This document shows, in pieces, positions 11,034 through 64,000 of a stretch of 64,000 nt of DNA (position 1 is its first letter; every line of letters starts with the position of its first letter). The DNA is from Escherichia phage Esco_phi_B-01. The notes under the pieces were generated by a model. It saw nothing but the letters and a program-made list of their open reading frames with translations, did no database searches and was not told the DNA's origin. The stretch is from sequence record OP292222.1. One strand, 5' to 3'. The position numbers were made by a program, and so were the translations under genes.

Positions 11034-11063
11034 GTTTACATACCACATGGAACGTGGTATTAT
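11034..11063 (+). promoter_or_regulatory. T4-type early promoter (GTTTAC - 18 - TGgTATTAT)
   Basis: -35 GTTTAC at 11034-11039, extended -10, conserved leader cctatcaactacatgagga. Confidence 0.6.
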
Positions 11064-11093: not shown

Positions 11094-11330
11094 ATGGAAG
11101 CTTTAATCGTTAGTGCTGGTGTTTTAGGATTCGGTTCTCTGGCTATTATGTTCATTGGTTACTTTTTACCATGGATTCTAGCTCTTTTGCGAGGCACCCG
11201 TAGCAATGTCGGAATCTTCTTCCTTAATCTCTTGTTAGGATGGACGATGATTGGTTGGGTAGTGGCTTTAATCTGGGCCATCGTCGCTGAACGTAAATCA
11301 AACGCACAAATCATTATCGTTAAACAATGA
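11094..11330 (+). CDS. imm: Imm-like superinfection immunity membrane protein (two TM helices)
   Basis: 78 aa with two hydrophobic helices and conserved GW motifs; sits where T4 has imm, next to gene 43. Confidence 0.5.
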   Translation: MEALIVSAGVLGFGSLAIMFIGYFLPWILALLRGTRSNVGIFFLNLLLGWTMIGWVVALIWAIVAERKSNAQIIIVKQ

Positions 11331-11464
11331 AGATAATTATTTTATTTCTTATAATGACTGCCTTTACCGTTTATTGGGCAGTGGCAATTCCTCCAATGAT
11401 TCCAACATTAATCATAGGATGGATTATTCTTATAGCACAAATTAAGTATAACTGTTTTAATTGA
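11327..11464 (+). CDS. small hydrophobic membrane peptide (45 aa)
   Basis: ATGA overlap with the imm-like stop; hydrophobic throughout. Confidence 0.35.
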   Translation: MKIIILFLIMTAFTVYWAVAIPPMIPTLIIGWIILIAQIKYNCFN

Positions 11465-11471
11465 GGATATT

Positions 11472-11972
11472 ATGAAAAAGTTAATTATCGCAATGAGTAT
11501 GCTCCTATCAGGTTGCGCGGTCCAATACGGTGATGCAGTTTCGGCTGATGAAGTTGGTAAAGCTCGTATTGCAGCTGAACAGAAACAATTCGACGGCGAA
11601 ATGAAATTCCGTGCCGGTTCTGGACTTGTGTATACCCGAGCTAATAATCAATGTGGTAATAACTGTGCAAAATATGCTCAAAGGGAAATCGAATTCCAAC
11701 GTGAACAAGAGTCTAAGCGTGAAGAGGTACTAGCCAAACACCAGGCAGAAATGAAGCGCCAAGATGATTTGTACAAAAAGCAGAAACTGTATTCTATGTG
11801 TGTAAACCATATCAATCTACAGATTTCTGTCCATGAGGCTCGTTATTACGAAATGCTCGAAACCGAGAGCTTCGATAAAGCTCGTGATTATAAGAAACAA
11901 ATCAACAAGCTTAAGACCAAAGTGCCTGCTGCAGTAGAACAGTGCATGGAATACGGTAAAGATAAGATTTAA
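11472..11972 (+). CDS. putative lipoprotein (166 aa)
   Basis: signal peptide with lipobox LLSGC; RBS gagga. Confidence 0.6.
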   Translation: MKKLIIAMSMLLSGCAVQYGDAVSADEVGKARIAAEQKQFDGEMKFRAGSGLVYTRANNQCGNNCAKYAQREIEFQREQESKREEVLAKHQAEMKRQDDLYKKQKLYSMCVNHINLQISVHEARYYEMLETESFDKARDYKKQINKLKTKVPAAVEQCMEYGKDKI

Positions 11973-12032
11973 GCAATAGAAATTTATTAAAAATAGTGTA
12001 TAATGTACCTACATTCACTTGAGGAACAGATA

Positions 12033-13706
12033 ATGAAAAAGGTTGTTATTTTAGGCGCAGGTCTTGGCTCACGGTTGTATCCAATTACTAACGAAATCCC
12101 GAAGGTATTGGTTAACTATAAACAACATACGGTATTAAAGCATTTGTATGATTTGTATAGTAACCAATCAGATGAAATTATTCTGGTTATTCACAGCAAA
12201 TTTAACGACCTCGTTAAAGGCTATATTAAATCCATTAACATGATTACTGGTGATAAGCCTAAATTCACTATTCGTAACGTTGATGTTGCTAATGGTTCAG
12301 CTCATGCAATCGATTGCATTGCCGAAGATATCATTGGCCATAATGTCCTGTTTAACTGGTGTGACATCATTCCTATCGGTCATAAAGTTGAATGGGGTAA
12401 CGACTACTGTTATACCTATGGAACTGACTGTCGTTTTACATTTGAAGAACCGTACTTACGTGAAATTGGTACTGGTGGCGGTGTAGTTGGTTTGTATCAG
12501 GTAGCCAATTGGACAGGTTTCGACCGTTCTAATTATGGTGAAGACCTTGCTGATAACCTGGATTCAATGGTCTATTTGACCGAACGTAAACTGGATTTTG
12601 TAGTTGATGTCGGTGACAAATTGAAACTGGCTAAGGCCCATGAAGAATCTGAAATTAACCGTGAATTTAATAAATTAGAATTCACCGAGAATCTGGCTAT
12701 TAAAGTACCAACTAACGAATTAGGTAAAGAAATTCAATCTAAAGAAATCAATTGGTATAATTCTATTGATTCTGAATTCGTTCCTAGCATTGTAGACTTT
12801 TCTCCAGGCGAATTCATTAAAATGGAACGTATCTTTGGTCGAACCATGGCAGATGCCTACCGGTTTATGTCCAAAGAAACTAAAGTCCTCATGGTTTATA
12901 AGGTCATTAGTGCATTACGTTCATTTGGTGGAACTATTGATAACCCGTCCGATGAGCAATGGTATTCCGATGTTAAGAAAGAAGTATTGGACAAGGTCCT
13001 TATTCGTAATGCTTCTATTGCTGGATTGATTGAAGGCTTTGCTCCACAGGGCATTACCCATGTTAACGATTTCAAAGTAGGCGACCCTGAAAAACTTCTT
13101 CGCCATGCACTAGAAATTCTGTCTGAACATAAAGAACCGTACCAACTTATTCATGGCGACCCGCACTACAGTAATATTATGCTGTCGGACGAAGGTGATA
13201 TTAAAATCATCGACCCACGTGGTTATTTCGGTAATAGTTCTAAAGGCCCTGCGATTTATGATGAAGCTAAGGTGCTTTATTCTATCGATGGCTATGACAA
13301 ATTTAACTCAGACCCTCTATGGGGCGGATTAACTCGTAACGGAACTCGTGTATTCGTTGATATCGAAAAGATTATGCCTTTAGACGATATCCCTATGTGC
13401 ACATTTAAGCACAAGCTCTGGATTGCTGTTATTTGGATGGCTCTGGCAGGTTACTTTAAGAATAACCCTCTGAAAGCTCTAGGTGCTTATTATAACGGTT
13501 TGTACCAACTGAGTGTGCTGCTGAAGCGGCATCCTCGTAAGCGTAAGCTTATTACGGGTGAATTTGTCGATGAAGTTCGTGACCCTATTACGGCTCAAAT
13601 TATTACTCGTTGTCCTGATAAGTGGGTTTTGCTTGACCAGGAAACTGGTGTAAAATATAAACCTACAGGTTCTACTGAACTCCACAAACAATGGAAGAAA
13701 ATTTAA
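12033..13706 (+). CDS. bifunctional sugar-1-phosphate nucleotidyltransferase / APH-like sugar kinase fusion
   Basis: N-terminal ILGAGLGSRLYPIT...PKVL (RmlA/GlmU-type NTP-transferase signature); C-terminal HGDPHYSNIML...IIDPRGYFG (aminoglycoside/choline kinase fold Brenner and DxxG motifs); RBS gagga. Confidence 0.75.
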   Translation: MKKVVILGAGLGSRLYPITNEIPKVLVNYKQHTVLKHLYDLYSNQSDEIILVIHSKFNDLVKGYIKSINMITGDKPKFTIRNVDVANGSAHAIDCIAEDIIGHNVLFNWCDIIPIGHKVEWGNDYCYTYGTDCRFTFEEPYLREIGTGGGVVGLYQVANWTGFDRSNYGEDLADNLDSMVYLTERKLDFVVDVGDKLKLAKAHEESEINREFNKLEFTENLAIKVPTNELGKEIQSKEINWYNSIDSEFVPSIVDFSPGEFIKMERIFGRTMADAYRFMSKETKVLMVYKVISALRSFGGTIDNPSDEQWYSDVKKEVLDKVLIRNASIAGLIEGFAPQGITHVNDFKVGDPEKLLRHALEILSEHKEPYQLIHGDPHYSNIMLSDEGDIKIIDPRGYFGNSSKGPAIYDEAKVLYSIDGYDKFNSDPLWGGLTRNGTRVFVDIEKIMPLDDIPMCTFKHKLWIAVIWMALAGYFKNNPLKALGAYYNGLYQLSVLLKRHPRKRKLITGEFVDEVRDPITAQIITRCPDKWVLLDQETGVKYKPTGSTELHKQWKKI

Positions 13707-14089
13707 TGTCGTATCGAGTAGAAAATAAGCCACATTTATGTTTTGATATCGATAACACAATCACGATTTGGAACCATGACCGTGATTATGAGAACTTTAA
13801 ACCGGACACCGAAATGGTGTCCATGATTAATAAGCTTTATGATGAAGGGTACGAGATTACATTGTTCACCGCGCGTGGCATGACTTCATGTGGCCCAGGT
13901 CGAATCTTGGTTGAAGTAGTTCCTGCCTTGGTTAAGAACCTTGAAAAAATTGGATTGAAATATCACAATTTGCTTACACATAAGCCGAGTTATACTTTTA
14001 TCATCGATGACCGAGCAATCCGTCCTGACCACTTTAAAGAAATGGTTCGTGAAGGAACTCTTGATGGTTATAAGGCCTATCATCCATGA
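13706..14089 (+). CDS. small HAD-superfamily phosphatase
   Basis: motif I FDIDNTIT near the N-terminus, TAR motif II; TAATG coupling to the upstream gene. Confidence 0.6.
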   Translation: MSYRVENKPHLCFDIDNTITIWNHDRDYENFKPDTEMVSMINKLYDEGYEITLFTARGMTSCGPGRILVEVVPALVKNLEKIGLKYHNLLTHKPSYTFIIDDRAIRPDHFKEMVREGTLDGYKAYHP

Positions 14090-14622
14090 ATCCAAAAATC
14101 ATTGTTATAGACGGCCCGGATAATTCCGGGAAGTCCACTTTAATTAAAAATCTGTTATCCAATAAGAAATACCGCCTTATTGATTTTCCTAAAAAGATTA
14201 ATGGCAAGTGTATTTCATTAGGAACTGATAACGATAAGGCTTTAGTTGAAACTCTGTATAAGTTTTTAGACCCTAATTTCGTTTATATCCTTGACCGTGG
14301 TTATCCAAGTAATATTGTTTACTCAGGATTCCTTCGTGGTGAAATGGACCCTTATGTAGAACTGGAAGATTGGAAAGGGTTTAAATCTGAATTTAACGTT
14401 ATCGAGGTTATTTTAACTCGCAACCCATTAGACGAAGACTTCGAAGACGACCTTATTAAATTAACCGAAGATGAGTTCAACCTAACTATCCGGCAATACG
14501 AAACATGTTTTGAAAACGTGTTTAAAATCTTAAATCATGACGGCCATAATAATTTGCTTAATGTTGATATGGTAGAATTAAAACGTCTGAACGAATATAT
14601 TGAAAATAAGGTGAATAAATGA
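14086..14622 (+). CDS. thymidylate-kinase-like P-loop nucleotide kinase
   Basis: IVIDGPDNSGKST P-loop and DRGYPSNIVYSG (TMK DR(Y/F)..S..AYQ-like motif); ATGA coupling. Confidence 0.6.
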   Translation: MNPKIIVIDGPDNSGKSTLIKNLLSNKKYRLIDFPKKINGKCISLGTDNDKALVETLYKFLDPNFVYILDRGYPSNIVYSGFLRGEMDPYVELEDWKGFKSEFNVIEVILTRNPLDEDFEDDLIKLTEDEFNLTIRQYETCFENVFKILNHDGHNNLLNVDMVELKRLNEYIENKVNK

Positions 14623-15317
14623 AACACATTACCGCTGTTAGTTTTGAAAATGCATTTAAACAAATGAACGAAGAAATCCTGGAAGCTCCACAGTTTGCAG
14701 TTGATTCTCGTATCGGACGTTGTTATGAAATTGGTTCTGCTTCGGTAGAAGTACTGGATGCAAGCACCTATAAATTCACCGACCCACGTATTAATCGTAT
14801 TAGTTATGAATATGCCGAATCCTTTTGGAAATTTATGATTTCTGGTGGTACTGACGCTGCCGAAGCATTTAAGGAATACCCTAATGTTGCTAAGTTCATT
14901 GATAAGCCGAAAAGTGACGTATTGCCTGCAAACTTCAACACTTTCTATGGACCTCGAATTGTGGCCCAACTCCCAGCCCTACTTAAAGAGCTTAAAGAAA
15001 AGGCTAACTCGCGAAGAGTTGTGTTCCAGATTCTCCAAGAACAAGACCAAGCCCTCCTTGATTCTGACGAATCCTTAGAATATCCGTGTACCGATTCGGT
15101 AACGTATTATATTCGTGACGGACGTTTGTATGCACACACCCATATGCGTTCACAGAACTGCGCTGTTGTTATGCAGCTGGATTTCTATCTGCAGGGTAAA
15201 CTGATGGCATTTATTGCTGAACAGTGTGGTGTCGGTTTAGGTACATATTCCCACACCATGGTAAGTGCACACGTGTTTGAACGCGATTTTGACTACGTCC
15301 GAGGTTTCCTGAAATGA
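14619..15317 (+). CDS. 42: dCMP hydroxymethylase (thymidylate-synthase fold)
   Basis: catalytic-Cys region YPCTDSV and MRSQN... align with T4 gp42 FMCTNTV / MRSND; position as in T4. Confidence 0.8.
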   Translation: MKHITAVSFENAFKQMNEEILEAPQFAVDSRIGRCYEIGSASVEVLDASTYKFTDPRINRISYEYAESFWKFMISGGTDAAEAFKEYPNVAKFIDKPKSDVLPANFNTFYGPRIVAQLPALLKELKEKANSRRVVFQILQEQDQALLDSDESLEYPCTDSVTYYIRDGRLYAHTHMRSQNCAVVMQLDFYLQGKLMAFIAEQCGVGLGTYSHTMVSAHVFERDFDYVRGFLK

Positions 15318-16207
15318 GTTTGTTTATCGTTCCTATTTTCAGTATGCGTAGTTACGAAACAGGTGAATATGCCGTCCTTAAGGACGGCAATTTTCAACTC
15401 CATTTAAATCGTGCTCGTCCAGGTGATTATCTGGCTTATCCTAGAAATTCGAGCGATATCAAAGAATGCATTGAATTATTCCCGGAACTGAATTTCGTAC
15501 CACTTTGGTATAAAGAAAATGCTTATGAAACCCGTAAACATTTCTGGTCTGAAAATGAGTTTGTAGTCGATTCACTAATCGAATACTACGATTGCTCAGG
15601 ACTGGTAACTGATATCACCGGTTATGATGGTGCTCACACTGTACAATTCAACTTTAATATCACAATGGACCCTGAAGTTCCTCGTTATTATATCGACGAG
15701 TTCATTGATATTGATGTGGCTTCAGTTGAACGTTCACTTTATACTACAGTCCTGAATCAATGCCAGAAAGACGTCCTGGTGTCACGAGGTGCATCCTCTG
15801 ATAAGATTTTTGTAGACCAAAAGGTAATTAATCCTGCAGTAATTGAGCGTTACTCTGAAGGTCTAGCGCCTATTAAAATTGATGGTATTTTCCATCCATT
15901 CCGTATTTCGGATAAGTGCTATCAATTCGAAAGAGTTGTAGACCAAGCTGCCGCTGAAGGTGCTCGTCTTTATATCACTGACCCGAATGATTCATTTAAG
16001 CGTGAAGACTATCGTCCTGATGTAGAGATTATTAAATTCAAACCGAGTAAGGTTGAATATTATCAAATTCTGAAATCAAGACCACATATCATTTATCATG
16101 AGAACCCAGGTTTAGTATTCCATCCTGGTCTGGCTGAATTCATTTATTTCGGTGCCAATATTCATTCTGAATACGAAATGCCACGTTATGAGGACGTAGT
16201 ATGCTAG
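15314..16207 (+). CDS. hypothetical protein in the beta-glucosyltransferase position; candidate hmC glycosyltransferase
   Basis: 297 aa, coupled to gene 42 (ATGA), no recognisable similarity to T4 beta-gt; function inferred from position and operon context only. Confidence 0.45.
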   Translation: MSLFIVPIFSMRSYETGEYAVLKDGNFQLHLNRARPGDYLAYPRNSSDIKECIELFPELNFVPLWYKENAYETRKHFWSENEFVVDSLIEYYDCSGLVTDITGYDGAHTVQFNFNITMDPEVPRYYIDEFIDIDVASVERSLYTTVLNQCQKDVLVSRGASSDKIFVDQKVINPAVIERYSEGLAPIKIDGIFHPFRISDKCYQFERVVDQAAAEGARLYITDPNDSFKREDYRPDVEIIKFKPSKVEYYQILKSRPHIIYHENPGLVFHPGLAEFIYFGANIHSEYEMPRYEDVVC

Positions 16208-16332
16208 GTCCTCTATTGCTTTTTATAGGTTTGTTATTATTCTCTTTCGGAGCCTTGCTATTACTAGTGTGGCTCGAGAAACGAGAAGTTCGGAAGATAG
16301 TCGATAAGGCTATCAACCGAGGAATTAAGTAA
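16201..16332 (+). CDS. small membrane peptide (43 aa, one TM plus basic tail)
   Basis: ATG overlapping the upstream stop; hydrophobic core LLLFIGLLLFSFGALLLLVWL. Confidence 0.35.
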   Translation: MLGPLLLFIGLLLFSFGALLLLVWLEKREVRKIVDKAINRGIK

Positions 16333-22830: not shown

Positions 22831-23352
22831 ATGGCTCATTTTAATGAATGTTCTCAACTGATTGCCGGTGCCGATAAAGCTGAAGAAGCTTATTTTAATG
22901 CTCTGATTCACGAAGATAAAGACCCTCTGCAGGTTATGCTTGATATGCAGAAATCTTTGCAGGTTCGTTTAGCTAAAGATAAGCCTGAATATAATCGTCA
23001 TCCTGATGATTTGGCCACTGCGGGTGAAGTTGTCGATTGGCTTCGCAACCAGAAAGATTATATTGATGACGAATTCCGTGAACTTCTGACTTCTCTTGGT
23101 GGTATGAGCAATGGTGAAAAAGATGCATCTGCAGTATGGAAGCCTTGGAAAGCTCAACATGCTGAACGTCGTGAAACCCTGATTAACGATTTGTCTCCTG
23201 AAGACCAGCTCGAAATTAAATTCGAAATGATTGATATTCTGCACTTTGTTCTGAATATGTTCCAGGGTCTTGGACTGACTGCTGAAGAAATCTTTAAACT
23301 GTATTATCTTAAAAATGCCGAGAACTTTGCTCGTCAAGACCGAGGTTATTAA
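22831..23352 (+). CDS. 56: gp56 dCTPase/dUTPase (MazG-like)
   Basis: MAHFNEC...DPLQVMLDMQ...IDDEFRELLTSLG...EIFKLYYLKNAENFARQDRGY closely matches T4 gp56. Confidence 0.85.
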   Translation: MAHFNECSQLIAGADKAEEAYFNALIHEDKDPLQVMLDMQKSLQVRLAKDKPEYNRHPDDLATAGEVVDWLRNQKDYIDDEFRELLTSLGGMSNGEKDASAVWKPWKAQHAERRETLINDLSPEDQLEIKFEMIDILHFVLNMFQGLGLTAEEIFKLYYLKNAENFARQDRGY

Positions 23353-35416: not shown

Positions 35417-35740
35417 ATGATTATGCAAGATAATAGTATAGTGAACACTGATAACTTGGCTTTGTCTTTTATGGAGACCGCAATTCGCAATTGTAAAGAC
35501 GAAGGAGTCGTGATTACAAGTGGCAAGGGACTAGAATATCTTAAGGCTGTAAAATCTATTGCCTTAAAGATTAAAGATAACCAGGCGCTCTCTCCTGTTG
35601 TCCAGGAAAAGGTTCTGGAGATATTGTATCGCCACAGAGAGCACAAAAGTACAATGGGTTCTATGAGAAGAATTCTGGCTGAACTGGGTTCTACCAGAGA
35701 ATATGTTCAACATGAGGTAGTTAAAAATGACAAACTTTAA
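35417..35740 (+). CDS. hypothetical protein (107 aa)
   Basis: ORF track; RBS aagaggtgag. Confidence 0.5.
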   Translation: MIMQDNSIVNTDNLALSFMETAIRNCKDEGVVITSGKGLEYLKAVKSIALKIKDNQALSPVVQEKVLEILYRHREHKSTMGSMRRILAELGSTREYVQHEVVKNDKL

Positions 35741-47945: not shown

Positions 47946-48722
47946 TTATACCCAAGACCCGTAAATAGTACCTGTGGCACCCCATGAAGGACTATTACCA
48001 CTTACAGCAGGCCCTGCAGCTCCAGGTGGAGACATGGATACACTGCGTCCATAACCCCAGCCGCCTGCAGCGCCTGCGTCACCGCCCCAACCGCCACCAA
48101 ACTGTCCGCCGGCATCCCCGGGACCACCGGCCCCAGCATAACTAGCGTTACCGCCAGGTCTATAACTAGTTGCACCACCTAACCCGAATGGTCTGCCACC
48201 GCCACCGCCGCAGGTTGAGCCAGAAGGATAGCTATTTTGCAATGATGTAGCACCGCCACCACCGCCACCACCACAGATAACACCATAGTTCCATATGCGT
48301 AAACGCCCACCAATTTCATTATAAATTGCTGTACCGCCTTGTTGGCCTCCACCGCCATTGGTTGCGCCATTACCACCGCGTCCCCACATATGAACCCCAC
48401 CATGAATATTCAAAGTAACGTATTCGTTAGGGATGTCACTATTCATAAAGAACAATGGAAGGTCTCTAGTATAAGATACTAAATCGCCGGTGATATTAAA
48501 CACAATAGGTGCAGCGCCGGCTTCAAAACAACGGTCTCTAAACCAATACCCGTTGAAGTTGTGGTCCGCCCCAAGTGTGTGAATTATTTCAACAGACCGA
48601 CCTATCATATTACTCATCCAAAATGGAACACCCATTCTCAATCGTTGGGCTGCTCCTGCCATCCAAGGGTCCCCAGTTTGTACCCTTGCAGACCATCCTA
48701 CCCACGGTCCTTCAACTGCCAT
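47946..48722 (-). CDS. 38: gp38 tail fiber adhesin (T2-type, glycine-rich motifs)
   Basis: polyglycine tracts ([20 protein letters not shown]); [11 protein letters not shown] region like T2 gp38; start at the ATG that follows SD GGAGG. Confidence 0.85.
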
Positions 48723-48734
48723 ATAAACCTCCAA

Positions 48735-48748
48735 GGGGCCTAGGCCCC
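48735..48748 (-). other. perfect palindrome ggggcctaggcccc between the gene 37 stop and the gene 38 RBS
   Basis: seen directly. Confidence 0.4.
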
Positions 48749-48753
48749 TCTTA

Positions 48754-51700
48754 TTATTTTAACAATGATTTAACTAAAGCTTTAAGTTCTTCAATCTCTG
48801 ATTTCAATTCTGCTATTTCGGCAGTGTGCTCATTGATTGCAGCTGTATTTAAACCAATTACACCGTTATAGTTCAAACGAAGTAAAGCTTCACCATCAGG
48901 GTCACCTTCAACCAATTCAGGTAAAATAGCTTGAACTTCTTGGGCAATTAAACCAGCATTAGGTTCCCATTTCTGATTACCTTCCTCATCTAGGCCTCGC
49001 TTCTGCATATAAGTGTAACCGTTAATTTTAGAAAGCTTCTGAGAAGCATTTTCAAATTTAACAAGGTCCTTTTTAACACGAATATCAGAGCGGACATAAA
49101 CATCGCGGACAAACGTAGAATAGGCATCACTTTGTTGGACTAAATGCCCATAAGAAATAATAGCTCTTCCTGTTTCGGTCCACAAAGCACCGGTGGTATC
49201 CCAAAGACCTTGATGAATCTGATAACCGGCTGACCATGAAGCAATATGAACACCATTGGCAACCATATTGATTCGGCCATCGCCACCATGAACTAATCCG
49301 GTATCATTATCACCAATAACAAGACATGGTCCGGCCCACACAGGGTCACCGCCGCCAGCTGATAATCTTGCTCCAGTTTTAACCATGTTAGGAACAAACA
49401 GAGTTCCATTGTGGTGGAATTCATATATAGCTTGTGGGTCAGAACCGTTTTCTTGGTTACCTACACGAATAATACCTTGCGCCCATGTATTAGTGATGCG
49501 TCGCATGCCAAAATCAACACCTGATATGTATCCTTCGTTAGTAATACCAGATTTTCCTTTGATAATTGGATAATAACTATCATTACCAACATTACCAAAA
49601 TCAACAAATACCGGTGCTTCTTGCTTCCATTGGTTTCCCCAATCGCCAGCCTGGTGGGATGCCCAGACAGAGCCATTAATAAAAAGACGGTCCCTATTAA
49701 AATTAAAAGTGGCTGAACCTTGTGGGTTTAAAGCAATATCGCCGTCTGCATTAATATTTACGCCTGAATTAGTTTGAAAACTATAAATTGATACAGCATT
49801 ATCGGCACCGCCGTTACCTACATACCAGTTATCAATACCAGCTTTTTGTCCTTTCATATAACCAGATTCGGTTGCAGCACTGTTAATAACAATAGCATCC
49901 GAGTTTGCATTCAGCGTTAAACGCCCGGTCATTGTGTCGCCGCCTTTACCTACACGAGTATTCACCGCTGCGTCAAGGTTAGTAGCACCGCTATACTTGT
50001 TCCAAATAGAACCTGCAATATTACCATCAGTATTCATGAAAGCTGTACCGGCATATAAGCGGTTCTGAGCCATGAAGTTACCTTCTTTGGTAAAGCGCCA
50101 GTATTTTAATCCGGTTGTAACGCCATCGCCCTGCAAATCACCTTGAGCAACAATTCGGTATTCGCTCGTGGTGCGGTCCATACCTTGAGTAATAGTTACA
50201 TTAGAAACTGTATTTTTCTGCTTGGTAATTGGATAGAATGCTTGGGTTGCTGCACCAAGTGTTTGATACAACGGAGCTTTAGTCGTATTCTGGTTGGCAT
50301 AAGATGCACCATTACCAGCAGGGAATTCTAATACGCTGTTAGCAATAAAAGAAACTTGGTCAGCCGCTAAATTAGGGATTTTAACTTGACCGGTGTCTAA
50401 CGTAATACTTAATGGGCGTAATGGGCCTAATCCGCCACTTTCGCCGGCATTAACATTGGTTGGGATAATATGCAGCTGGTCTTCTGAATTTCGGAAAATA
50501 ACACCATATTTATCATTCCAAATACGAAGACCACTAGCAGCGCGGACTTTAATTTCATTGGAAACATACAGATTGCGTTTTAAGGATGTATCTTGACTGA
50601 CAGACAATCCTTCGACGATGTTCATCGTACCGTTTAAATAAGATTCGACTTTACCTGCTGTAGTTCGTTGAATATAGTGCATCCAGCCGGTAGCATCAGA
50701 TGTTTCCAATACGTTTTTACGAGAACCACCTACCGTATTAAAAGTGTCACCCCAACCTTTGAGCTCTATATTATCAACTGAACTATATCCTGTGGTACTT
50801 CCTTTAAAAATCACAGTGGAAGCGTTACCACGACCGTCAATATTAACCGAACCACCACGGACTTCAACGTTACCAGGAGTAACCAACAACCCACCATCAG
50901 TGTTAACGTTTGTTACACCTTTACCACGGAAATAATGGTGGTATTTACCACTCTGATGATAACCTAAAAGAGTCTGTCCATCACCAAAGCCGTTTTTATC
51001 ATTAGTAGTATTAACAATAACTAATGGATAGTTTTGAGCTGTAGGAAGAATTAAATCAGAACCGTTGGTTGAATAACCAGCAACTAACTGTTTAAGGCTT
51101 GTAACTTCAGTCGGAGTTGTAAGTAAAGTATAAGCTCCATTATTAACTGTATGGAACTGGCCGTCTTGTTTCCATTTCAAACCTGTGTTATTGTCACCAA
51201 GAGCAATTGAAGCCGTCCCTAATTCAGAATATCCTTTAGGGCCACCTGGAAGACCTACAGAAATAGAATGACCGGCTTTCAATCCACCGGACCAGGTAAA
51301 CGACCAAAGATAAGTGTCTAAGCCATCTCCGGAATACCAGGCTATTCCGTCATTAACATTAACTTCGTGGAAAATACCTGCTCCTACAGCATTTCGCATA
51401 ACACGGAGGTGGTTAATAGCCGTTTCGCTTTCTGCCAATGGAGTGTTATTTGATAATGAAGATATATCGTAATCGCCGGCGGCTTTACCGTCGGTAATAA
51501 CTTTATTAGTATAAATTATTGGAGATTTTACCGATGTTCCACCAGAAATAGATGGAGCATAAAATAAACCGTCACCGTTGAATGCAAAAATATTAGATGT
51601 TGAATTAGTGTAATCCTGAACACGAACATTTAAGATTTGCTTGGTATCCCCAGCACGGTTTTGAGAATAAATTATGCCTCTTTCACGCGCATCAGCCAAA

Positions 51701-52074
51701 TCCTGGAATCGAACGTGGGTAGTTCCTGCACCCCGTACAAGAACTTCACCGTTATCTGTCATTAGGCGAGATTTTGCTGTGATATCACCATTTGCTGTTA
51801 TACTTCCGGATGTCGTATAACTACCTGTTTGGGTAAAAGCACCCTTCAGGGCATAATCGCCGGTCTGGTTGTAGTTACCGTTATGAATAACGTTTCCGTC
51901 GATATTACCACCTTTAGCAAAGCCAAGGTCGATAATCGCTCCAGTGTCATCTTTGGTAAATAACAAACGGTCTTTTAAGTTAATAGCCAGCTCGCCTTCA
52001 GCCAACTGCGCTGGCGTAGGACGTACACCAGCTACTTTACTTCTTTTAAATTGTATCTGTTTTAAAGTAGCCAT
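48754..52074 (-). CDS. 37: gp37 long tail fiber distal subunit with C-terminal intramolecular-chaperone (peptidase S74-like) domain
   Basis: N-terminus [13 protein letters not shown] as T4 gp37; C-terminus SDIRVKKD...[15 protein letters not shown]...coiled coil. Confidence 0.9.
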
Positions 52075-52082
52075 AATGCCTC

Positions 52083-52730
52083 TTAATAATAACCAAAATC
52101 TTGAATAGAATCTTTTTGAACAATCTGGTCAAAGCGAGGAACGTGTCCTGCACCAGAGGCCGGATTCCGTGAAATAAAGTTAGGAGCCGCTAGCACTCCA
52201 TCCATTATTTGCATGTCAGTATTATTTATTTGGACCTGTTTTGCGTTATCTACTAATGACAATCCAACTTGGGCTTTAGTAGGGGTGTTGCCTGGGCTGA
52301 ATACGCGGCCTGATTCATCATAAACTTGACGGAATAACGAATCACCCATTACAGTAAGACGTTTAGCACCAACTGTTGTATTTGGGTCAAATATCATAAA
52401 CGGAGTACCATCTTCCGTTTCATATCCAAAAGCACCTTTAATACGGAAAGAAGCTGTGAACGGGGCTCCGCCGGTTCTTGCTCCTAATTTAATACCATAT
52501 CCATTAGTATCATTAAAGGTCAAACCTTTTTCAAAATACACGTTGTTCTGATAATTACCACCGTTAGCTTTTGAAACGAAATCGTTATCAACTGCTTGAG
52601 GTTTATTATACTCGGTGTAAACTTTATATGTTTTGTAAAGAAGGTCGTTTGATACAGGCGTTAAAGGAAAATTACCTTGGTGCCATAATACCGAACCTCC
52701 TGCTGTAGAACCTAATTTTAAATCTGCCAT
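52083..52730 (-). CDS. 36: gp36 long tail fiber connector
   Basis: MADLKLGSTAGGSVLWHQGNFPL matches T4 gp36 N-terminus. Confidence 0.88.
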   Translation of the reverse strand: MADLKLGSTAGGSVLWHQGNFPLTPVSNDLLYKTYKVYTEYNKPQAVDNDFVSKANGGNYQNNVYFEKGLTFNDTNGYGIKLGARTGGAPFTASFRIKGAFGYETEDGTPFMIFDPNTTVGAKRLTVMGDSLFRQVYDESGRVFSPGNTPTKAQVGLSLVDNAKQVQINNTDMQIMDGVLAAPNFISRNPASGAGHVPRFDQIVQKDSIQDFGYY

Positions 52731-52784
52731 TTGAGTTTCCTTTGGGAGTTATAGCCTTTTATATATTTATGGCTGTAGAAAATG

Positions 52785-52806
52785 AAAAAGGAACCCGAAG
52801 GTTCCT
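52785..52806 (-). terminator. intrinsic terminator on the minus strand between genes 35 and 36
   Basis: minus strand reads aggaacc-ttcg-ggttcct + TTTTT. Confidence 0.6.
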
Positions 52807-53927
52807 TAATATTTTTCTCTAAATTCAGCGACCCAAACCTGACCAGGCTTAGTACCTGTTTTATCGTATAACTGAGCTATGGTAGTACCCATATTCTTAG
52901 TTTCGGTACCGAAATTCATACGAATACCATTTACACCAAATTCGGCTGATTTAGGTTGAGATTCTGGCTCTGATACTTCACCAAACATCACATTACGTAC
53001 ACCGCCAACTCCATCGGCCACTGTTTTTCTTGCATACAATGTAAATGTTTCAGTATTAGCAGGAACTTCAATTACCCGCTCAAAAGTCATCCAAGACCCA
53101 GCAGGGACATTAGGTGGAACTTCCATATTAACCGACCCTGTTAAAGCACCTGAGGCATTAAAAAATCTAACAGACATCTGAGAGGTCCCTAAATCTTTTA
53201 ATTCCTGGTCACACATCATTTGGAATTTAAGATAAAAGAATTCTCCAGGCTTCATATTATAATCGGCGCAAGGAGTAGTAGGAGATTCAGTAGGGAAACG
53301 TTTTATTTCCTCTCCATCATTACTTAGATAAGTGTTTTCATCTTCCACTATTCTTATAGGATACCCGGTGCCGCCAACATCACTGATATCGTCAAAAACG
53401 ACTTCTAATGGTGTAGAAACATCTTCAACAAACACCCCATCATTATAAAGGACGTGTTCCATCACTATAGTATTTCTACCGGACACGTAAAAGGCCGAAT
53501 AAGACGGCTCGAAGCGGTCTATTAGCCATTTAGATGGAAATGCGGTACTTCCAGCTGCACGGAACCAATCAATAAGATTTTGTGAAGCATTTAATCTACC
53601 GGAAGATACTAAACAAACTATTCTATTGGCTGGTATTGAACTTATGTAAGTAATAAAAGCTTCAGAGATAACATCAAAATCTTTTGTAAAGCTATAAGTT
53701 TTGTTAGCCACCACTTTAGGTTCGGCACTAACATCAATTTCTATAAGGTTTAGTCCATTTTGAAAATTCTGGGGACCAAAGTCCCCATCTTGAAATTTAA
53801 CATATGCTTTTGTGGTAGACTTAGTACAGCTACCTGCTATACTAAGTTTATACCTTACAGCATTGTTTTCAGATAATGTAGGAACCTGGACATATCCTTG
53901 TCCAAATTCTGCCATAAATCTTTCCAT
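52806..53927 (-). CDS. 35: gp35 long tail fiber hinge protein
   Basis: MERFMAEFGQGYVQ and C-terminus like T4 gp35. Confidence 0.88.
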   Translation of the reverse strand: MERFMAEFGQGYVQVPTLSENNAVRYKLSIAGSCTKSTTKAYVKFQDGDFGPQNFQNGLNLIEIDVSAEPKVVANKTYSFTKDFDVISEAFITYISSIPANRIVCLVSSGRLNASQNLIDWFRAAGSTAFPSKWLIDRFEPSYSAFYVSGRNTIVMEHVLYNDGVFVEDVSTPLEVVFDDISDVGGTGYPIRIVEDENTYLSNDGEEIKRFPTESPTTPCADYNMKPGEFFYLKFQMMCDQELKDLGTSQMSVRFFNASGALTGSVNMEVPPNVPAGSWMTFERVIEVPANTETFTLYARKTVADGVGGVRNVMFGEVSEPESQPKSAEFGVNGIRMNFGTETKNMGTTIAQLYDKTGTKPGQVWVAEFREKY

Positions 53928-53935
53928 AATACCTC

Positions 53936-56900
53936 TTATTCAATCCACTCAAACTTAACGGATTTAGTGACTGGGTCAGGGATAATACGAACATTACCAA
54001 TACGTAACCAATCAAGGATTGTAATGTTTTTCATGGTGGCATTATCTGCAGGTAAAGCACCCACGTCATTGGCTGTAGGCGGGTTAGCTGCTGTATAAAC
54101 CATAGCAAAATCCGTCCACTCATTTTTATTTTTCTGCCAAGTACGGGTATAACGAATGGTACCACCATTCAAACCTACAGGATAACAAATCCAATCTTGA
54201 TAACACGAATCCAATGTATTACCAAACTGGGTTAACGTACCAGGGTATTTAATTTCGTTTTTATCTCTATCAAAGAAATCAAACCATTGGCCTCTAAGCT
54301 TTTCATCATTAGAGCCTAAAACCGGGGCTCCTTCAGTACCATCCTCATTCAGATAATGTATTTCAGGCGAATCAAAAGTTCCATCTAACGTCAACCAGCC
54401 TGAGGCTTTCCAAACTTCATCCGTCACCGAAGGTGGCTTGGTCTGAATTGTATCAATAGTTATATGACGACGTAATATCATTCTATGATACCCAGGGAAC
54501 TTACTATAAGTAGCCTCGTCATTGATATCAACAGACCAGAAGCCAACTGTCTCTGCCGTAGGAACCTGAGAATCTAATGTAGGCTTAGTACCAAATACGC
54601 GAACCGGAGCATTCACACGGAGTACACCGGACATTGTATCACCGGCTTGGTTAACAAAGTTTCTGTCTACAATTTCTACTGCGTTTTTCTCGGTAAGAAC
54701 TTTATAAGCACCACCACCATTAGCTACGATATTTCCTGCATCTAATGTTTTAAGTACCAAGTTCTGTGAGTTATCGCCTAAAGTCAATGTAGCACCAGAA
54801 GCTTCACCAGTGGTGGTTGCGATAGTTCTTCCATTTAACACAAAGTTATTTTTGGCTTGAACATCATTACCAGCGCTAAGGTTGTTAAGTGCAGCAACAT
54901 TACCTGTAGCAGTGTTTAATGTCAATACGTTAGTAGTATCGCCAATCGTTAATGTAGTTCCAGTAGATGGAGATGTTATTTTCCATTTATTAGTTCCGTT
55001 AACAACATTCACTGTACCAAAGGTAGAATTAGTAGCTGTAACATCCGTAAATGTAGCAGTACTAGAAGACACCAGAGGGGCTGCCAGGTTCAATTGTTTG
55101 GTCAGGGTTAAAGAACCATTAACCGTTTGGTCGACGTCTCTACGAATGAACTGAAGTGAATCCAGGCCATCCAATTTCTCGGAGTTCACAGCCGTAGCAT
55201 TTATAGGTAAAAAGTTCTGTAAAGTTTTATTCATCTCGTAAGATGAAACCGCATAACCTGTTTTAGGATAGTTGGCTGCATTCAGAACAGTATCGTCATT
55301 CTCATAAAGGCCTGTAGCTGAGTTAAATTTAACACCAGAACCGGTAACTTTATTTCCTGAGTAAGTCAAAGCACCTTCGGTCAATTTAACAAATCCACGA
55401 CGAAGTGCAGTAGATTCCCAAGTGGTTTCGGTCTGTACTACATATTTTAAACCAGAAGGGCTTACAGCCAGAACTTTAGAAGTTCCTGCAGTGGTTTCGG
55501 TATTCGTTGCAACACGAATAATACCTTCAGAACTTTCAGTAGATTTTTTAGAGTGTAATTTCAAAGGAGTGATGATGGTTTTGTCATCAGTGCCAACATT
55601 GACTTCGGTCTGGGTAGCCAGACGAGCGGTACCACGTTGGGTCTCATTTGCTTCTCTAATATCTAGTGTATAATGGTTCCATAAGGTTCCTGATTCAATC
55701 AAACCACTGGCTGCTGAGACAGAAGTTCTAGCAGTATCATTAAGTCTTGTTTTAATTTTCAACGGAGTTGAAATAACATTATCTAACGTGCCTTCATCAA
55801 ATTCTGCCTGGGTTGCAATTCTAGCAATACCAGTCAATCCTTCCGTAGCTTTCCTATCATTTAACGTTTTAGGCGTTACCGCACGAGTATAATCTGTTCC
55901 AGTATCTGTCTCTACTTGCGTAGCAATTTCAATTAACCCTGTACGAGTATCAAGAGCCACACGAGCATGCAACGTTTCAGGAGAAACCGCGCTGTTAGCA
56001 AATCCACTAGCAGATTGTCCGGTATTAACTTCTGATTGGGTAGAAAGATATACCGTACCTTGTTGGACTTGAGTAGCTTTATATTGGTCTAAAGCTTTAG
56101 GAGAAATAACCAAATTGCCTACGTTCTTATTATAAACGTTAGTACCTACAGTGTCCCTAGCAGTCGCAGGAGTTGTGTCTACCGTAGAGGTATATTTTAC
56201 AATACCTGAAAGACTTTCAGTGCCCTGGCGCGTCTGTAGCTTCTTAGGAGTAATAATGGTGGTATCGTCAACACCGGCATCAGTTTCCTGTTGCGTAGCA
56301 ATTTCGGCTACACCACGACGAGTTTCGGTTGCAGTACGTTCGTTTAATTTCTTAGGAGAAATAATCAAATCATCCTGGAAAGCGAAAGTTGTATCTTGGT
56401 TCACCTGAGCAGTCGTAGCAATACGAGCAATACCACGACGAGTTTCAGTGGCAACACGATTGGCTAAAGTCTGAGGAGTAATTGCAAGTTCTTTTTCAGG
56501 ATTATTTTCATGGTCAACGTTAGCCTGGGTCTGAGACGCAAGGGCAATAACACCAAGACGAGCACGAGTTAAATCATCCTTAGAATCTACACGTTCTACT
56601 GTAGGAACGTTCTGAGCAACAACCCAATATTTACCGCCTGTAGTGGTGTCTTCGATATAACTCAGTTCAATAACCGGGGTATAACTTATATTGCCATTAA
56701 AGGTCAATACGTCATTCAACACCCATTCAGTATCTGGTGGATATTCAGAACGTTTAGGGAACTGGAGCAATTGAACAGAAGAAGCAATTTTATCACCTAC
56801 AGCAGCCTTAATATTTACTGTCTGTGCTTTACGAAGATAGTTCAATGCGATTTTAATAGTATCGCCTTGTGCTACGCTAGTAGGTAAAGTGATATTAATA

Positions 56901-62895: not shown

Positions 62896-64000
<1,105 letters not shown>

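What the first reader, a model, noticed from the sequence alone, without database searches (positions are those of the whole stretch)
11094..16332. Expanded gene block between DNA polymerase and uvsX: candidate hydroxymethylcytosine hypermodification pathway
In T4 the interval between genes 43 and uvsX holds only imm, 42 and beta-gt. Here it holds an Imm-like protein, a TM peptide, a lipoprotein, then a five-gene operon joined by overlapping stop/start codons (TAATG, ATGA, ATGA, ATGA): a fused nucleotidyltransferase/kinase, a HAD phosphatase, a TMK-like kinase, dCMP hydroxymethylase, and a 297-aa protein where beta-glucosyltransferase would be. The enzyme logic reads as sugar-phosphate to free sugar (HAD), to sugar-1-phosphate (APH-like kinase), to NDP-sugar (nucleotidyltransferase), to transfer onto hmC (the 297-aa protein), with hmC supplied by gp42. 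That would be a phage-encoded salvage route to an activated sugar the host does not make, as expected for a non-glucose hmC modification such as an arabinosyl or other pentosyl/hexosyl adduct.
Basis: partly seen in the sequence, partly recalled or inferred. Interest (0 to 1): 0.88.

Follow-up and report, generated by a model that had tools for sequence, protein, structure and literature searches.

The report
Phage arabinosyl-hydroxycytosine DNA modification genes

Summary
All nine ORFs, the TAATG overlap and the three ATGA overlaps are present. The block is 98.4% identical to phage JS98 (Dhakavirus).

The block does encode a route to an activated pentose plus a glycosyltransferase:
- The fusion protein has nucleotidyltransferase and APH-kinase domains.
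- The 127-aa protein is a HAD phosphatase.
- The 297-aa protein models confidently as a GT-B glycosyltransferase.

The "dCMP hydroxymethylase" call is wrong. That protein is 79.7% identical to RB69 gp48, a proven flavin-dependent 5-hydroxy-dCMP synthase, and only 24.5% identical to T4 gp42. It carries the diagnostic Asp169-to-Asn signature. The base is therefore most likely 5-hydroxycytosine, with the sugar ether-linked at C5.

The pathway was published in 2018 and 2025-2026 for RB69, HY126, DLP3 and Bas46/47, and Dhakaviruses are named as carrying the syntenic cluster.

What this analysis adds is small. The Dhakavirus version is minimal: it has no arabinose-5-P isomerase, no U32-family protein and no second transferase. 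That predicts mono-arabinosylation and dependence on host arabinose-5-P. The thymidylate-kinase-like gene remains unexplained.

The parts
11094..11330 (+). Imm superinfection-immunity membrane protein (78 aa). It lies next to the modification genes but is not part of the modification chemistry.
   Evidence: Pfam PF14373, E 5e-18. 45.8% identical to T4 Imm. A promoter-like site, TTTACA-17-TATTAT, lies at 11035-11063.
11327..11464 (+). Small hydrophobic peptide, homolog of RB69 ORF054c. JS98 annotates the shorter form, equivalent to 11354-11464. Function unknown.
   Evidence: 55.6% identical to RB69 ORF054c. phrog_3610, E 3e-21. Kyte-Doolittle 19-residue maximum 2.5.
11472..11972 (+). Predicted lipoprotein of 166 aa, function unknown. 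It is conserved at the same position, just after the polymerase gene, in several other genera.
   Evidence: Lipobox LSGC at residues 12-15. phrog_1754, E 4e-52. Homologs are present in L016, L020-L023, L025 and L027.
12033..13706 (+). Bifunctional sugar-1-phosphate nucleotidyltransferase (N-terminal) and APH-type sugar kinase (C-terminal), of the RB69 ORF53_52c / HY126 AfhE type. Inferred activities are arabinose-5-P 1-kinase and UDP-arabinofuranose pyrophosphorylase.
   Evidence: Pfam NTP_transferase residues 13-110 and APH residues 356-427. 44% and 41% identical to RB69 ORF053c and ORF052c. Motifs GAGLGSRL, HGDPHYSN and IIDPRG. phrog_4098, E 5e-268. The activities are taken from PMC13326640 and were not tested here.
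13706..14089 (+). HAD-superfamily phosphatase of the RB69 gp51 / HY126 AfhF type. Inferred to be the arabinose-1,5-bisphosphate 5-phosphatase.
   Evidence: PDB 9iqw, E 1e-52, and 1xpj, E 5e-12. 60.8% identical to RB69 ORF051c. TIGR01689, E 1e-14, below its cutoff. DIDNT motif.
14086..14622 (+). Thymidylate-kinase-like P-loop nucleotide kinase (RB69 gp45 homolog). Its role in the pathway is unknown.
14619..15317 (+). Thymidylate-synthase-family 5-hydroxy-dCMP synthase (dCMP C5-hydroxylase), not a dCMP hydroxymethylase.
   Evidence: 79.7% identical to RB69 gp48 against 24.5% to T4 gp42. PDB 9iqu/9iqc/9ir2, E 2e-125, against T4 gp42 (1b49), E 1.5e-4. Catalytic Cys is present in YPCT; Asn sits at ThyA position 169 and Asp at position 177 (RSQNCAVVMQLD). 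The activity of RB69 gp48 was shown experimentally in PMC13326640.
15314..16207 (+). GT-B fold glycosyltransferase (called GT1 here; RB69 gp46:47 and DLP3 gp79 homolog). Inferred to transfer the first arabinofuranose onto 5-hydroxycytosine.
16201..16332 (+). 43-aa hydrophobic ORF overlapping the end of the transferase gene. It is unannotated in JS98 and it is uncertain whether it is a real gene.
   Evidence: ORF listed. Kyte-Doolittle maximum 2.9. No family match. Many relatives align only as far as about 16200.
22831..23352 (+). gp56 dCTPase/dUTPase. It lies outside the finding's coordinates and supplies dCMP while excluding dCTP, so it is the upstream step of the pathway.
   Evidence: 100% identical to JS98 gp56. 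Pfam dUTPase_2.

Best explanation
The block is the Dhakavirus version of the phage pathway that replaces cytosine in virion DNA with arabinosylated 5-hydroxycytosine.

Base branch:
1. gp56 (window 22831-23352) converts dCTP to dCMP.
2. The TS homolog (14619-15317) hydroxylates dCMP at C5 using a flavin and O2, giving 5-hydroxy-dCMP.
3. The phage gp1 dNMP kinase and host NDP kinase raise this to the triphosphate.
4. The phage DNA polymerase incorporates it.

Sugar branch:
1. Arabinose-5-phosphate is phosphorylated at C1 by the kinase domain of the fusion protein. It must come from the host (KdsD/GutQ), because the phage has no isomerase.
2. The HAD phosphatase removes the 5-phosphate.
3. The nucleotidyltransferase domain condenses arabinofuranose-1-P with UTP to give UDP-arabinofuranose.

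Final step: the 297-aa GT-B transferase puts arabinose on the 5-hydroxyl. Only one transferase was found in the Dhakavirus genome sequence searched (JS98 1-146,000 plus this window), so the expected product is mono-arabinosyl-5-hydroxycytosine.

What is shown here: homology, motifs, folds, synteny, and absence of the other genes.
What is taken from published experiments on RB69, HY126 and DLP3: the enzyme activities.
What is inferred: the sugar identity, the arabinose number and the host dependence in this phage.

The role of the TMK-like kinase is unknown.
For: Identity of the phage and block:
- The block is 98.4% identical to JS98 (Dhakavirus).

TS homolog:
- 79.7% identical to RB69 gp48, and matches PDB 9iqu at E 2e-125.
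- Carries the Asn169/Asp177 signature, which PMC13326640 gives as predictive of 5-hydroxy-dCMP synthases.

Sugar-activation proteins:
- HAD protein matches PDB 9iqw at E 1e-52.
- The fusion protein has NTP_transferase and APH domains with intact motifs.

Transferase:

Synteny:
- Of the 51 related loci (49 from IMG/VR plus two metagenome/genome contigs), 45 of the 46 TS homologs next to a GT1 homolog are Asn169-type, and the T4-like loci also carry the fusion and HAD genes.

Absences:
- No gp42-type enzyme, beta-gt, second transferase, isomerase or U32 gene was found in JS98 1-146,000 plus the window.

Literature:
- PMC13326640 names Dhakaviruses among the genera with the syntenic cluster.
- Published phages fit a rule that transferase count tracks arabinose count. 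Thanatos has a single ara-GT and is mono-arabinosylated (PMC13326640). LC53 is mono-arabinosylated, and no RB69 gp3 homolog was seen in any Serratia phage record. RB69 and Bas46 have two transferases and two arabinoses. DLP3 has three of each.
Against: - No chemical analysis of a Dhakavirus virion DNA was found in the searchable library, so the base and sugar are inferred by homology.
- The fusion protein is only 41-44% identical to RB69's, and the isomerase is missing, so a different pentose phosphate cannot be excluded.
- The first-transfer activity of the gp46:47 family has not been reconstituted. Single transferases were inactive on 5-hydroxycytosine DNA (PMC13326640).
- The Thanatos homolog TH1_063 was instead reported to form UDP-xylose from UTP and xylose-1-P (PMC12838424).
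- He et al. 2026 and Mahler et al. 2025 could not be read.
Confidence: 0.85

Rival explanations
1. gp42-type dCMP hydroxymethylase supplies hmC. A salvage route (sugar-phosphate to free sugar by HAD, to sugar-1-P by the kinase, to NDP-sugar) feeds a transferase that glycosylates the hydroxymethyl group.
For: The TS homolog is a thymidylate-synthase-family protein with Asp at the dCMP-specifying position. RB69 was originally reported as arabinosyl-hmC (PMC6024577). Table 1 of PMC13326640 still lists the free-arabinose order of steps.
Against: - The protein is 24.5% identical to T4 gp42 but 79.7% identical to the proven hydroxylase RB69 gp48, and it has Asn, not Asp, at position 169.
- The RB69 hmC assignment has been corrected to 5-hydroxycytosine (PMC13326640; PMC13390438).
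- The kinase-then-phosphatase order is reported for HY126.
- No other gp42-like gene was found in JS98 1-146,000 plus the window.
Confidence: 0.04
2. Same 5-hydroxycytosine scaffold but a different sugar. Because the Dhakavirus cluster lacks the arabinose-5-P isomerase, the kinase, phosphatase and nucleotidyltransferase would activate another host pentose or hexose phosphate, and the transferase would add that sugar.
For: No isomerase was found in JS98 1-146,000 plus the window. The fusion protein is only 41-44% identical to RB69's. 5-hydroxycytosine is known to carry hexoses in other phages such as RL38J1 (PMC13326640). The Thanatos authors suggested xylose.
Against: - E. coli makes arabinose-5-P constitutively for Kdo synthesis (established knowledge), so an isomerase is dispensable.
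- The HAD protein and the transferase are 61% and 65-70% identical to the RB69 proteins.
- Marfa-like Klebsiella phages also lack the isomerase while keeping the rest of the cluster.
- PMC13326640 treats the Thanatos modification as arabinose.
Confidence: 0.08
3. The first glycosylation happens on the free nucleotide rather than on DNA. GT1 arabinosylates 5-hydroxy-dCMP, the TMK-like kinase phosphorylates the bulky product that gp1 cannot handle, and the polymerase incorporates the glycosylated triphosphate.
For: - The order TS homolog, GT1, TMK-like kinase is kept across very distant phages, including loci with no sugar-activation genes nearby.
- JS98-type phages already have a separate gp1 dNMP kinase, so the extra kinase needs an explanation.
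- The model of the extra kinase is closest to thymidylate kinases.
- Single transferases were inactive on 5-hydroxycytosine DNA, and the authors state they cannot tell the nucleotide level from the DNA level.
Against: - All characterised phage DNA glycosylations are post-replicative.
- DLP3 gp76 and gp77 act on DNA.
- RB69 gp1-type kinase phosphorylates 5-hydroxy-dCMP.
- Negative in vitro results are weak evidence.
- No polymerase is known to use a glycosylated dCTP in vivo (own knowledge).
- He et al. 2026 may already have settled this and could not be read.
Confidence: 0.1
4. The sugar genes serve host-surface or capsule/LPS remodelling rather than DNA modification, as some database names suggest ('capsule biosynthesis protein', 'phosphoheptose isomerase').
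For: Annotation names in phage records, TIGR01689 and the PDB title of 9iqw. The structural neighbours of the transferase are LPS and cell-wall glycosyltransferases.
Against: - The genes are translationally coupled to the dCMP hydroxylase and lie among replication genes.
- They co-occur with Asn169-type TS homologs across phage genera.
- Arabinose is found on the DNA of relatives (PMC6024577, PMC13326640).
Confidence: 0.01

Closest known systems
RB69 (Mosigvirus) cytosine arabinosylation cluster, gp45-gp55 plus gp3 (Thomas 2018, PMC6024577; Lee et al. 2026, PMC13326640)
   Same: - Same location between gene 43 and uvsX.
- Homologs of gp48 (79.7% identity), gp46:47 (65-70%), gp51 (60.8%), ORF53_52c (41-44%), gp45 (37.9%) and ORF054c (55.6%).
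- Same signature residues in the hydroxylase.
   Different: - The window lacks gp55 (arabinose-5-P isomerase), gp50 (U32 family), gp49 and the second transferase gp3. None of these was found in JS98 1-146,000 plus the window.
- The TMK-like gene lies before the hydroxylase instead of after the transferase.
- Imm and a lipoprotein gene sit at the head of the block.
- Expected product is mono- rather than mono-plus-di-arabinosyl.
Phage HY126 Afh enzymes (He et al. 2026, Nat Chem Biol; PDB 9iqu/9iqc/9ir2, 9iqw, 9iqz)
   Same: The hydroxylase and the HAD phosphatase match PDB chains 9iqu (E 2e-125) and 9iqw (E 1e-52). AfhE (kinase plus pyrophosphorylase) and AfhF (phosphatase) are the reported activities for the fusion and HAD types.
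Acinetobacter phage DLP3 gp76-gp83 (tri-arabinosyl-5-hydroxycytosine)
   Same: Same core set: hydroxylase, GT1, TMK-like kinase, HAD and fusion protein. The hydroxylase is about 71% identical in related Acinetobacter phages.
   Different: DLP3-type phages add the isomerase and two gp3-like transferases, giving three arabinoses.
Shewanella phage Thanatos TH1_060-TH1_063 (PMC12838424)
   Same: A single 300-aa GT-B protein next to a TS homolog, plus a 561-aa fusion protein. It is mono-pentosylated cytosine, the same transferase count as this window.
   Different: - Distant host and lineage.
- The authors reported UDP-xylose pyrophosphorylase activity for the GT-B protein and proposed a deoxypentose or xylose.
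T4 hmC glucosylation system (gp42, alpha-gt, beta-gt)
   Same: - Same genome position and overall logic: dCTPase, a TS-family enzyme modifying dCMP at C5, then a GT-B transferase using a UDP-sugar.
   Different: - Different chemistry at C5: hydroxyl through flavin and O2 instead of hydroxymethyl through folate.
- Different sugar, and the donor must be made by the phage.
- No sequence similarity to beta-gt.

Membership tests
Phage arabinosyl-5-hydroxycytosine modification cluster (RB69 / HY126 / DLP3 type) | TS-family enzyme of the 5-hydroxy-dCMP synthase class: Asn at E. coli ThyA position 169, Asp at position 177, catalytic Cys retained | tested here: met
   The alignment with E. coli ThyA, T4 gp42 and RB69 gp48 shows RSQN...QLD and YPCT. 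79.7% identity to RB69 gp48. PDB 9iqu, E 2e-125.
Phage arabinosyl-5-hydroxycytosine modification cluster (RB69 / HY126 / DLP3 type) | Bifunctional nucleotidyltransferase / APH-type kinase fusion (AfhE type) | tested here: met
   Both Pfam domains score above their cutoffs. Motifs are intact. 41-44% identity to both halves of RB69 ORF53_52c. phrog_4098 matches end to end.
Phage arabinosyl-5-hydroxycytosine modification cluster (RB69 / HY126 / DLP3 type) | Small HAD phosphatase (AfhF type) | tested here: met
   PDB 9iqw, E 1e-52. DxDxT motif. 60.8% identity to RB69 gp51.
Phage arabinosyl-5-hydroxycytosine modification cluster (RB69 / HY126 / DLP3 type) | GT-B glycosyltransferase encoded directly after the hydroxylase gene | tested here: met
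Phage arabinosyl-5-hydroxycytosine modification cluster (RB69 / HY126 / DLP3 type) | Phage-encoded arabinose-5-phosphate isomerase (SIS domain; RB69 gp55) | tested here: not met
   tblastn found no hit in the window or in JS98 1-146,000. It is also absent from Marfa-like loci L015, L017, L018 and from L029, so it is an accessory gene rather than a universal one.
Phage arabinosyl-5-hydroxycytosine modification cluster (RB69 / HY126 / DLP3 type) | Arabinose ether-linked to C5 of cytosine in virion DNA | not testable with these tools
   This needs LC-MS/NMR of virion DNA. No such data for a Dhakavirus were found.
Phage arabinosyl-5-hydroxycytosine modification cluster (RB69 / HY126 / DLP3 type) | Enzyme activities: flavin-dependent hydroxylation, arabinose-5-P 1-kinase, 5-phosphatase, UDP-arabinofuranose pyrophosphorylase, arabinosyl transfer | not testable with these tools
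   Known only from experiments on RB69, DLP3 and HY126 homologs.
T4-type hydroxymethylcytosine glucosylation system | gp42-type dCMP hydroxymethylase (Asp at ThyA position 169; close similarity to T4 gp42) | tested here: not met
   24.5% identity over 159 residues. PDB 1b49, E 1.5e-4. Asn at position 169. No other hit in the genome sequence searched.
T4-type hydroxymethylcytosine glucosylation system | Homolog of alpha- or beta-glucosyltransferase | tested here: not met
Thymidylate kinase (dTMP kinase) family | P-loop NMP-kinase fold with Walker A motif; family-level sequence score | tested here: inconclusive

The most novel reading that the evidence does not exclude
The conserved trio of hydroxylase, GT1 transferase and thymidylate-kinase-like kinase works on free nucleotides. 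On this reading, 5-hydroxy-dCMP is arabinosylated before replication, the dedicated kinase phosphorylates the glycosylated monophosphate, and the phage polymerase incorporates a sugar-bearing dCTP. That would be a pre-replicative glycosylation unlike the T4 paradigm. The held literature states that the site of the first arabinosylation is unresolved.
Probability: 0.1. Interest if true: 0.7.

Novelty: already known. Interest (0 to 1): 0.25.

Why it matters
Arabinosylated 5-hydroxycytosine protects phage DNA from restriction enzymes, some CRISPR-Cas systems and the Brig1 glycosylase. It also exposes the phage to modification-dependent nucleases. Knowing which therapeutic coliphages carry it therefore helps predict host range.

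For this window the value is mainly in correcting annotation. JS98-type records still label these genes "dCMP hydroxymethylase", "thymidylate synthase", "phosphoheptose isomerase", "capsule biosynthesis protein" or "hypothetical".

The Dhakavirus cluster is the smallest arabinosylation set seen among the T4-like loci compared here. That makes it a convenient minimal system for three tests:
- reconstituting the pathway;
- testing dependence on host arabinose-5-P;
- finding the role of the extra kinase.

Tried and rejected
Searches that came back negative:
- Homologs of RB69 gp3, gp55, gp50 and gp49, of T4 beta-gt and gp42, and of a Flavodoxin_2 protein were searched in the window and in JS98 1-146,000. 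None was found, except gp42 hitting the hydroxylase weakly.
- The idea that the gap between gene 39 and rIIA.1 holds a decayed second transferase was rejected. There is no tblastn signal, only a 107-aa ORF.
- PDB sequence searches gave nothing significant for the 297-aa protein and only distant nucleotidyltransferase hits for the fusion protein.
- No tRNA genes are present in the window.

Weak or uninformative results:
- The promoter and terminator scan was not above shuffled expectation. Only the two 10-of-12 promoter matches, upstream of imm and of the fusion gene, are worth noting.
- The word-indexed protein search found only 9 relatives of the TMK-like protein, so its model rests on a shallow alignment.

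Papers that could not be obtained:
- Mahler et al. 2025, He et al. 2026 and Zuber et al. 2007 are not held.

A correction to my own assumption:
- I first assumed phages dhaeg and dhabil were the BASEL phages Bas46/47. They are Danish wastewater Dhakaviruses. Bas47 (AlbertHofmann) is closely related to the Mosigvirus NP, and Bas46 carries the two-arabinose modification typical of Mosigviruses, so no measured Dhakavirus was found.

Full report
**What is in the sequence**

The window is a T4-like coliphage of the JS98 group (genus Dhakavirus). The region 11094-16332 is 98.4% identical over its full length to JS98. Fifty-one phage records hold at least 80% of it. The JS98 annotation shows the same genes between DNA polymerase (gene 43) and uvsX.

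- Imm (Pfam PF14373, E 5e-18)
- a 45-aa hydrophobic peptide homologous to RB69 ORF054c
- a 166-aa protein with the lipobox LSGC
- five tightly packed genes
- a 43-aa hydrophobic ORF

The junctions read directly from the sequence are TAATG at 13704-13708 and ATGA at 14086, 14619 and 15314.

Two start codons should be adjusted:
- The fusion gene most likely begins at 12033. A GAGGA ribosome-binding site lies upstream, JS98 is annotated this way, and a TATAAT box overlaps the earlier ATG at 12003.
- The phosphatase gene most likely begins at 13706.

T4 itself has imm.1, imm, 42, beta-gt and segA in this interval, so the "expanded block" description is fair.

**What the five proteins are**

1. *Fusion protein, 12033-13706.* It has an N-terminal NTP_transferase domain and a C-terminal APH-type kinase domain, both above the Pfam cutoffs. 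The motifs GAGLGSRL, HGDPHYSN and IIDPRG are intact. It is 44% and 41% identical to the two halves of RB69 ORF53_52c.

2. *Phosphatase, 13706-14089.* It has no Pfam hit, but it carries the HAD motif DIDNT. It matches TIGR01689 and HAD-IIIA models. It matches PDB chain 9iqw at E 1e-52 and is 60.8% identical to RB69 gp51.

4. *Thymidylate-synthase homolog, 14619-15317.* See the next section.

**The key correction: the base**

It is not of that type.
- It is 79.7% identical to RB69 gp48 but only 24.5% identical to T4 gp42.
- It matches PDB chains 9iqu, 9iqc and 9ir2 at E 2e-125, against E 1.5e-4 for T4 gp42.
- In an alignment with E. coli ThyA, T4 gp42 and RB69 gp48, it keeps the catalytic cysteine and the Asp that selects dCMP (ThyA position 177). 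At ThyA position 169 it has Asn, where ThyA and gp42 both have Asp.

Lee et al. 2026 (PMC13326640) showed experimentally that RB69 gp48 and DLP3 gp80 make 5-hydroxy-dCMP, with oxygen from O2 and a bound flavin. They propose exactly this Asp169-to-Asn change as the predictive signature.

They also showed that RB69 DNA carries arabinose ether-linked to 5-hydroxycytosine, not arabinosyl-hmC as first reported in 2018. The Durham phage study says the same.

A tblastn search of JS98 1-146,000 plus the window found no other gp42-like gene. The window covers the parts of the JS98 genome outside that range.

**Independent support from gene neighbourhoods**

I collected 49 viral loci, one genome contig and one metagenome contig that encode a relative of the 297-aa transferase. 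I then searched their six-frame ORFs with the window and RB69 proteins.
- A thymidylate-synthase homolog lies immediately upstream of the transferase gene in most loci. In 45 of these 46 neighbours it has Asn at position 169; the exception is L056.
- A TMK-like gene is adjacent in 45 of the 51 loci. It is missing only from the four most distant loci (L053, L054, L056, L057) and from one contig (L049) that ends at the transferase gene.
- All the T4-like loci that extend far enough also carry the fusion and HAD genes.

The transferase family is therefore tied to the hydroxylase type of enzyme, not to hmC.

**Mechanism**

The published route is as follows (PMC13326640, which cites He et al. 2026 for the HY126 enzymes AfhE and AfhF):
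1. Ribulose-5-P is converted to arabinose-5-P by an isomerase.
2. The kinase domain converts arabinose-5-P to arabinose-1,5-bisphosphate.
3. The HAD phosphatase converts that to arabinofuranose-1-P.
4. The nucleotidyltransferase domain forms UDP-arabinofuranose.
5. Arabinose is transferred to 5-hydroxycytosine.

On the base side, gp56 dCTPase is present in the window at 22831-23352. JS98 has the usual gp1 dNMP kinase, td, cd, alc and denA.

**How the Dhakavirus version differs**

It is the smallest set among the T4-like loci compared. It lacks:
- an arabinose-5-P isomerase (RB69 gp55)
- a U32-family protein (gp50)
- gp49
- a second, gp3-type transferase

None of these was found in the window or in JS98 1-146,000. 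At the site where RB69 carries gp3, JS98 has a gap with no annotated gene.

Two predictions follow.
- Arabinose-5-P must come from the host. E. coli makes it for Kdo synthesis (established knowledge).
- The DNA should carry a single arabinose. Published phages fit this rule. Thanatos has a single ara-GT and one pentose, and LC53 also carries one arabinose. RB69, Bas46 and phage NP have two transferases and two arabinoses. DLP3 has three of each.

Both predictions are inferences. I found no chemical analysis of a Dhakavirus.

**What remains uncertain**

- The first-transfer activity of this transferase family has not been reconstituted in the papers I could read. Lee et al. saw no activity of single transferases on 5-hydroxycytosine DNA, and they state that they cannot tell whether the first arabinose goes onto the nucleotide or onto DNA.
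- The Thanatos study reported, unexpectedly for a GT-B protein, that its homolog TH1_063 forms UDP-xylose from UTP and xylose-1-P.
- The TMK-like kinase has no assigned role. RB69's gp1-type kinase already phosphorylates 5-hydroxy-dCMP.
- The near-invariant order of hydroxylase, transferase and TMK-like kinase across distant phages leaves room for a nucleotide-level first glycosylation. I rate this at about 10%.
- He et al. 2026 and Mahler et al. 2025 could not be read and may already settle these points.

**Novelty and verdict**

The feature is already known:
- Thomas et al. 2018 pointed to this gene module in RB69 and to its counterparts in relatives.
- Petrov et al. 2010 had already asked what JS98 and RB69 do in place of glucosylation.
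- The 2025-2026 papers defined the base, the hydroxylase and the sugar route.
- Lee et al. list Dhakaviruses among the genera with the syntenic cluster.

The sequence here is essentially JS98. Interest is therefore low, about 0.25. The residual value lies in the minimal gene set, the annotation corrections and the unexplained kinase.

Noticed in passing
L007 6426-6932; L008 1-523; L037-L049 and L055 (Flavodoxin_2 genes); L015-L027, L029, L031 (U32 genes); L003 4493-5662 (RB69 gp50): Upstream of the Asn169-type TS homolog and the GT1 gene there is either a U32-peptidase-family gene (enterobacterial T4-like phages) or a Flavodoxin_2 (PF02525) gene (distant and jumbo-phage contigs), and never both. 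Dhakaviruses and Acinetobacter phages have neither. A flavin reductase partner would suit a flavin-dependent hydroxylase. U32-family proteins are known from other hydroxylations, such as tRNA ho5U and ubiquinone (own knowledge)..
   Followed up: partly
L053 9950-12057; L057 4756-6862: Two distant loci have a GT1 relative (25-30% identity) directly followed by a U32-family gene. No TS homolog lies within the fetched flanks (up to 10 kb). This hints at a different way of making the acceptor base..
   Followed up: no
L035-L050 and L007 (for example L040 8715-11500): Many distant loci have only the Flavodoxin_2, TS, GT1 and TMK-like genes, with no fusion kinase, HAD or isomerase gene in the fetched flanks (up to 10 kb). 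They may use a host NDP-sugar, as hexose-modified 5-hydroxycytosine phages do..
   Followed up: no
window 35417-35740 (+): A 107-aa ORF lies in the gap between gene 39 and rIIA.1, overlapping the rIIA.1 start. The equivalent gap is unannotated in JS98 RefSeq. This is the site where RB69 carries its second arabinosyltransferase, but the ORF shows no similarity to it..
   Followed up: partly
window 16201-16332 (+): A 43-aa strongly hydrophobic ORF overlaps the transferase stop by 7 nt. It is not annotated in JS98. Many relatives align only up to about position 16200, so the transferase-uvsX spacer is variable..
   Followed up: partly
window 11472-11972 (+): The 166-aa lipoprotein (phrog_1754) has no RB69 counterpart. 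It has a weak, non-significant resemblance to T4 Imm.1 (25% over 107 aa, E 1.1)..
   Followed up: partly
window 13706-16207; phage records listed: Public annotations of this block are inconsistent and mostly wrong. The HAD phosphatase appears as 'phosphoheptose isomerase' or 'capsule biosynthesis protein'. The hydroxylase appears as 'thymidylate synthase' or 'dCMP hydroxymethylase'. Other labels under the match include 'RNA polymerase binding protein' and 'capsid and scaffold protein'..
   Followed up: yes
window 63401-64000; window 48001-56000: The last 600 bases are only 88% identical to JS98 (near td/frd), against about 99% at the window start, so the genome is mosaic relative to JS98. GC skew turns negative between about 48 and 56 kb, which would be expected where the coding strand switches.
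   Followed up: no
phage records PQ561406.1 and PQ561417.1 ('phage Ec2-ASingh'): The best database match to the window (PQ561406.1, 100 kb, 98.5%) shares its name with another contig (PQ561417.1) that carries a Mosigvirus-type arabinose-5-P isomerase at 96.9% identity to RB69's. That submission therefore appears to mix contigs from two different arabinosylating phages..
   Followed up: no
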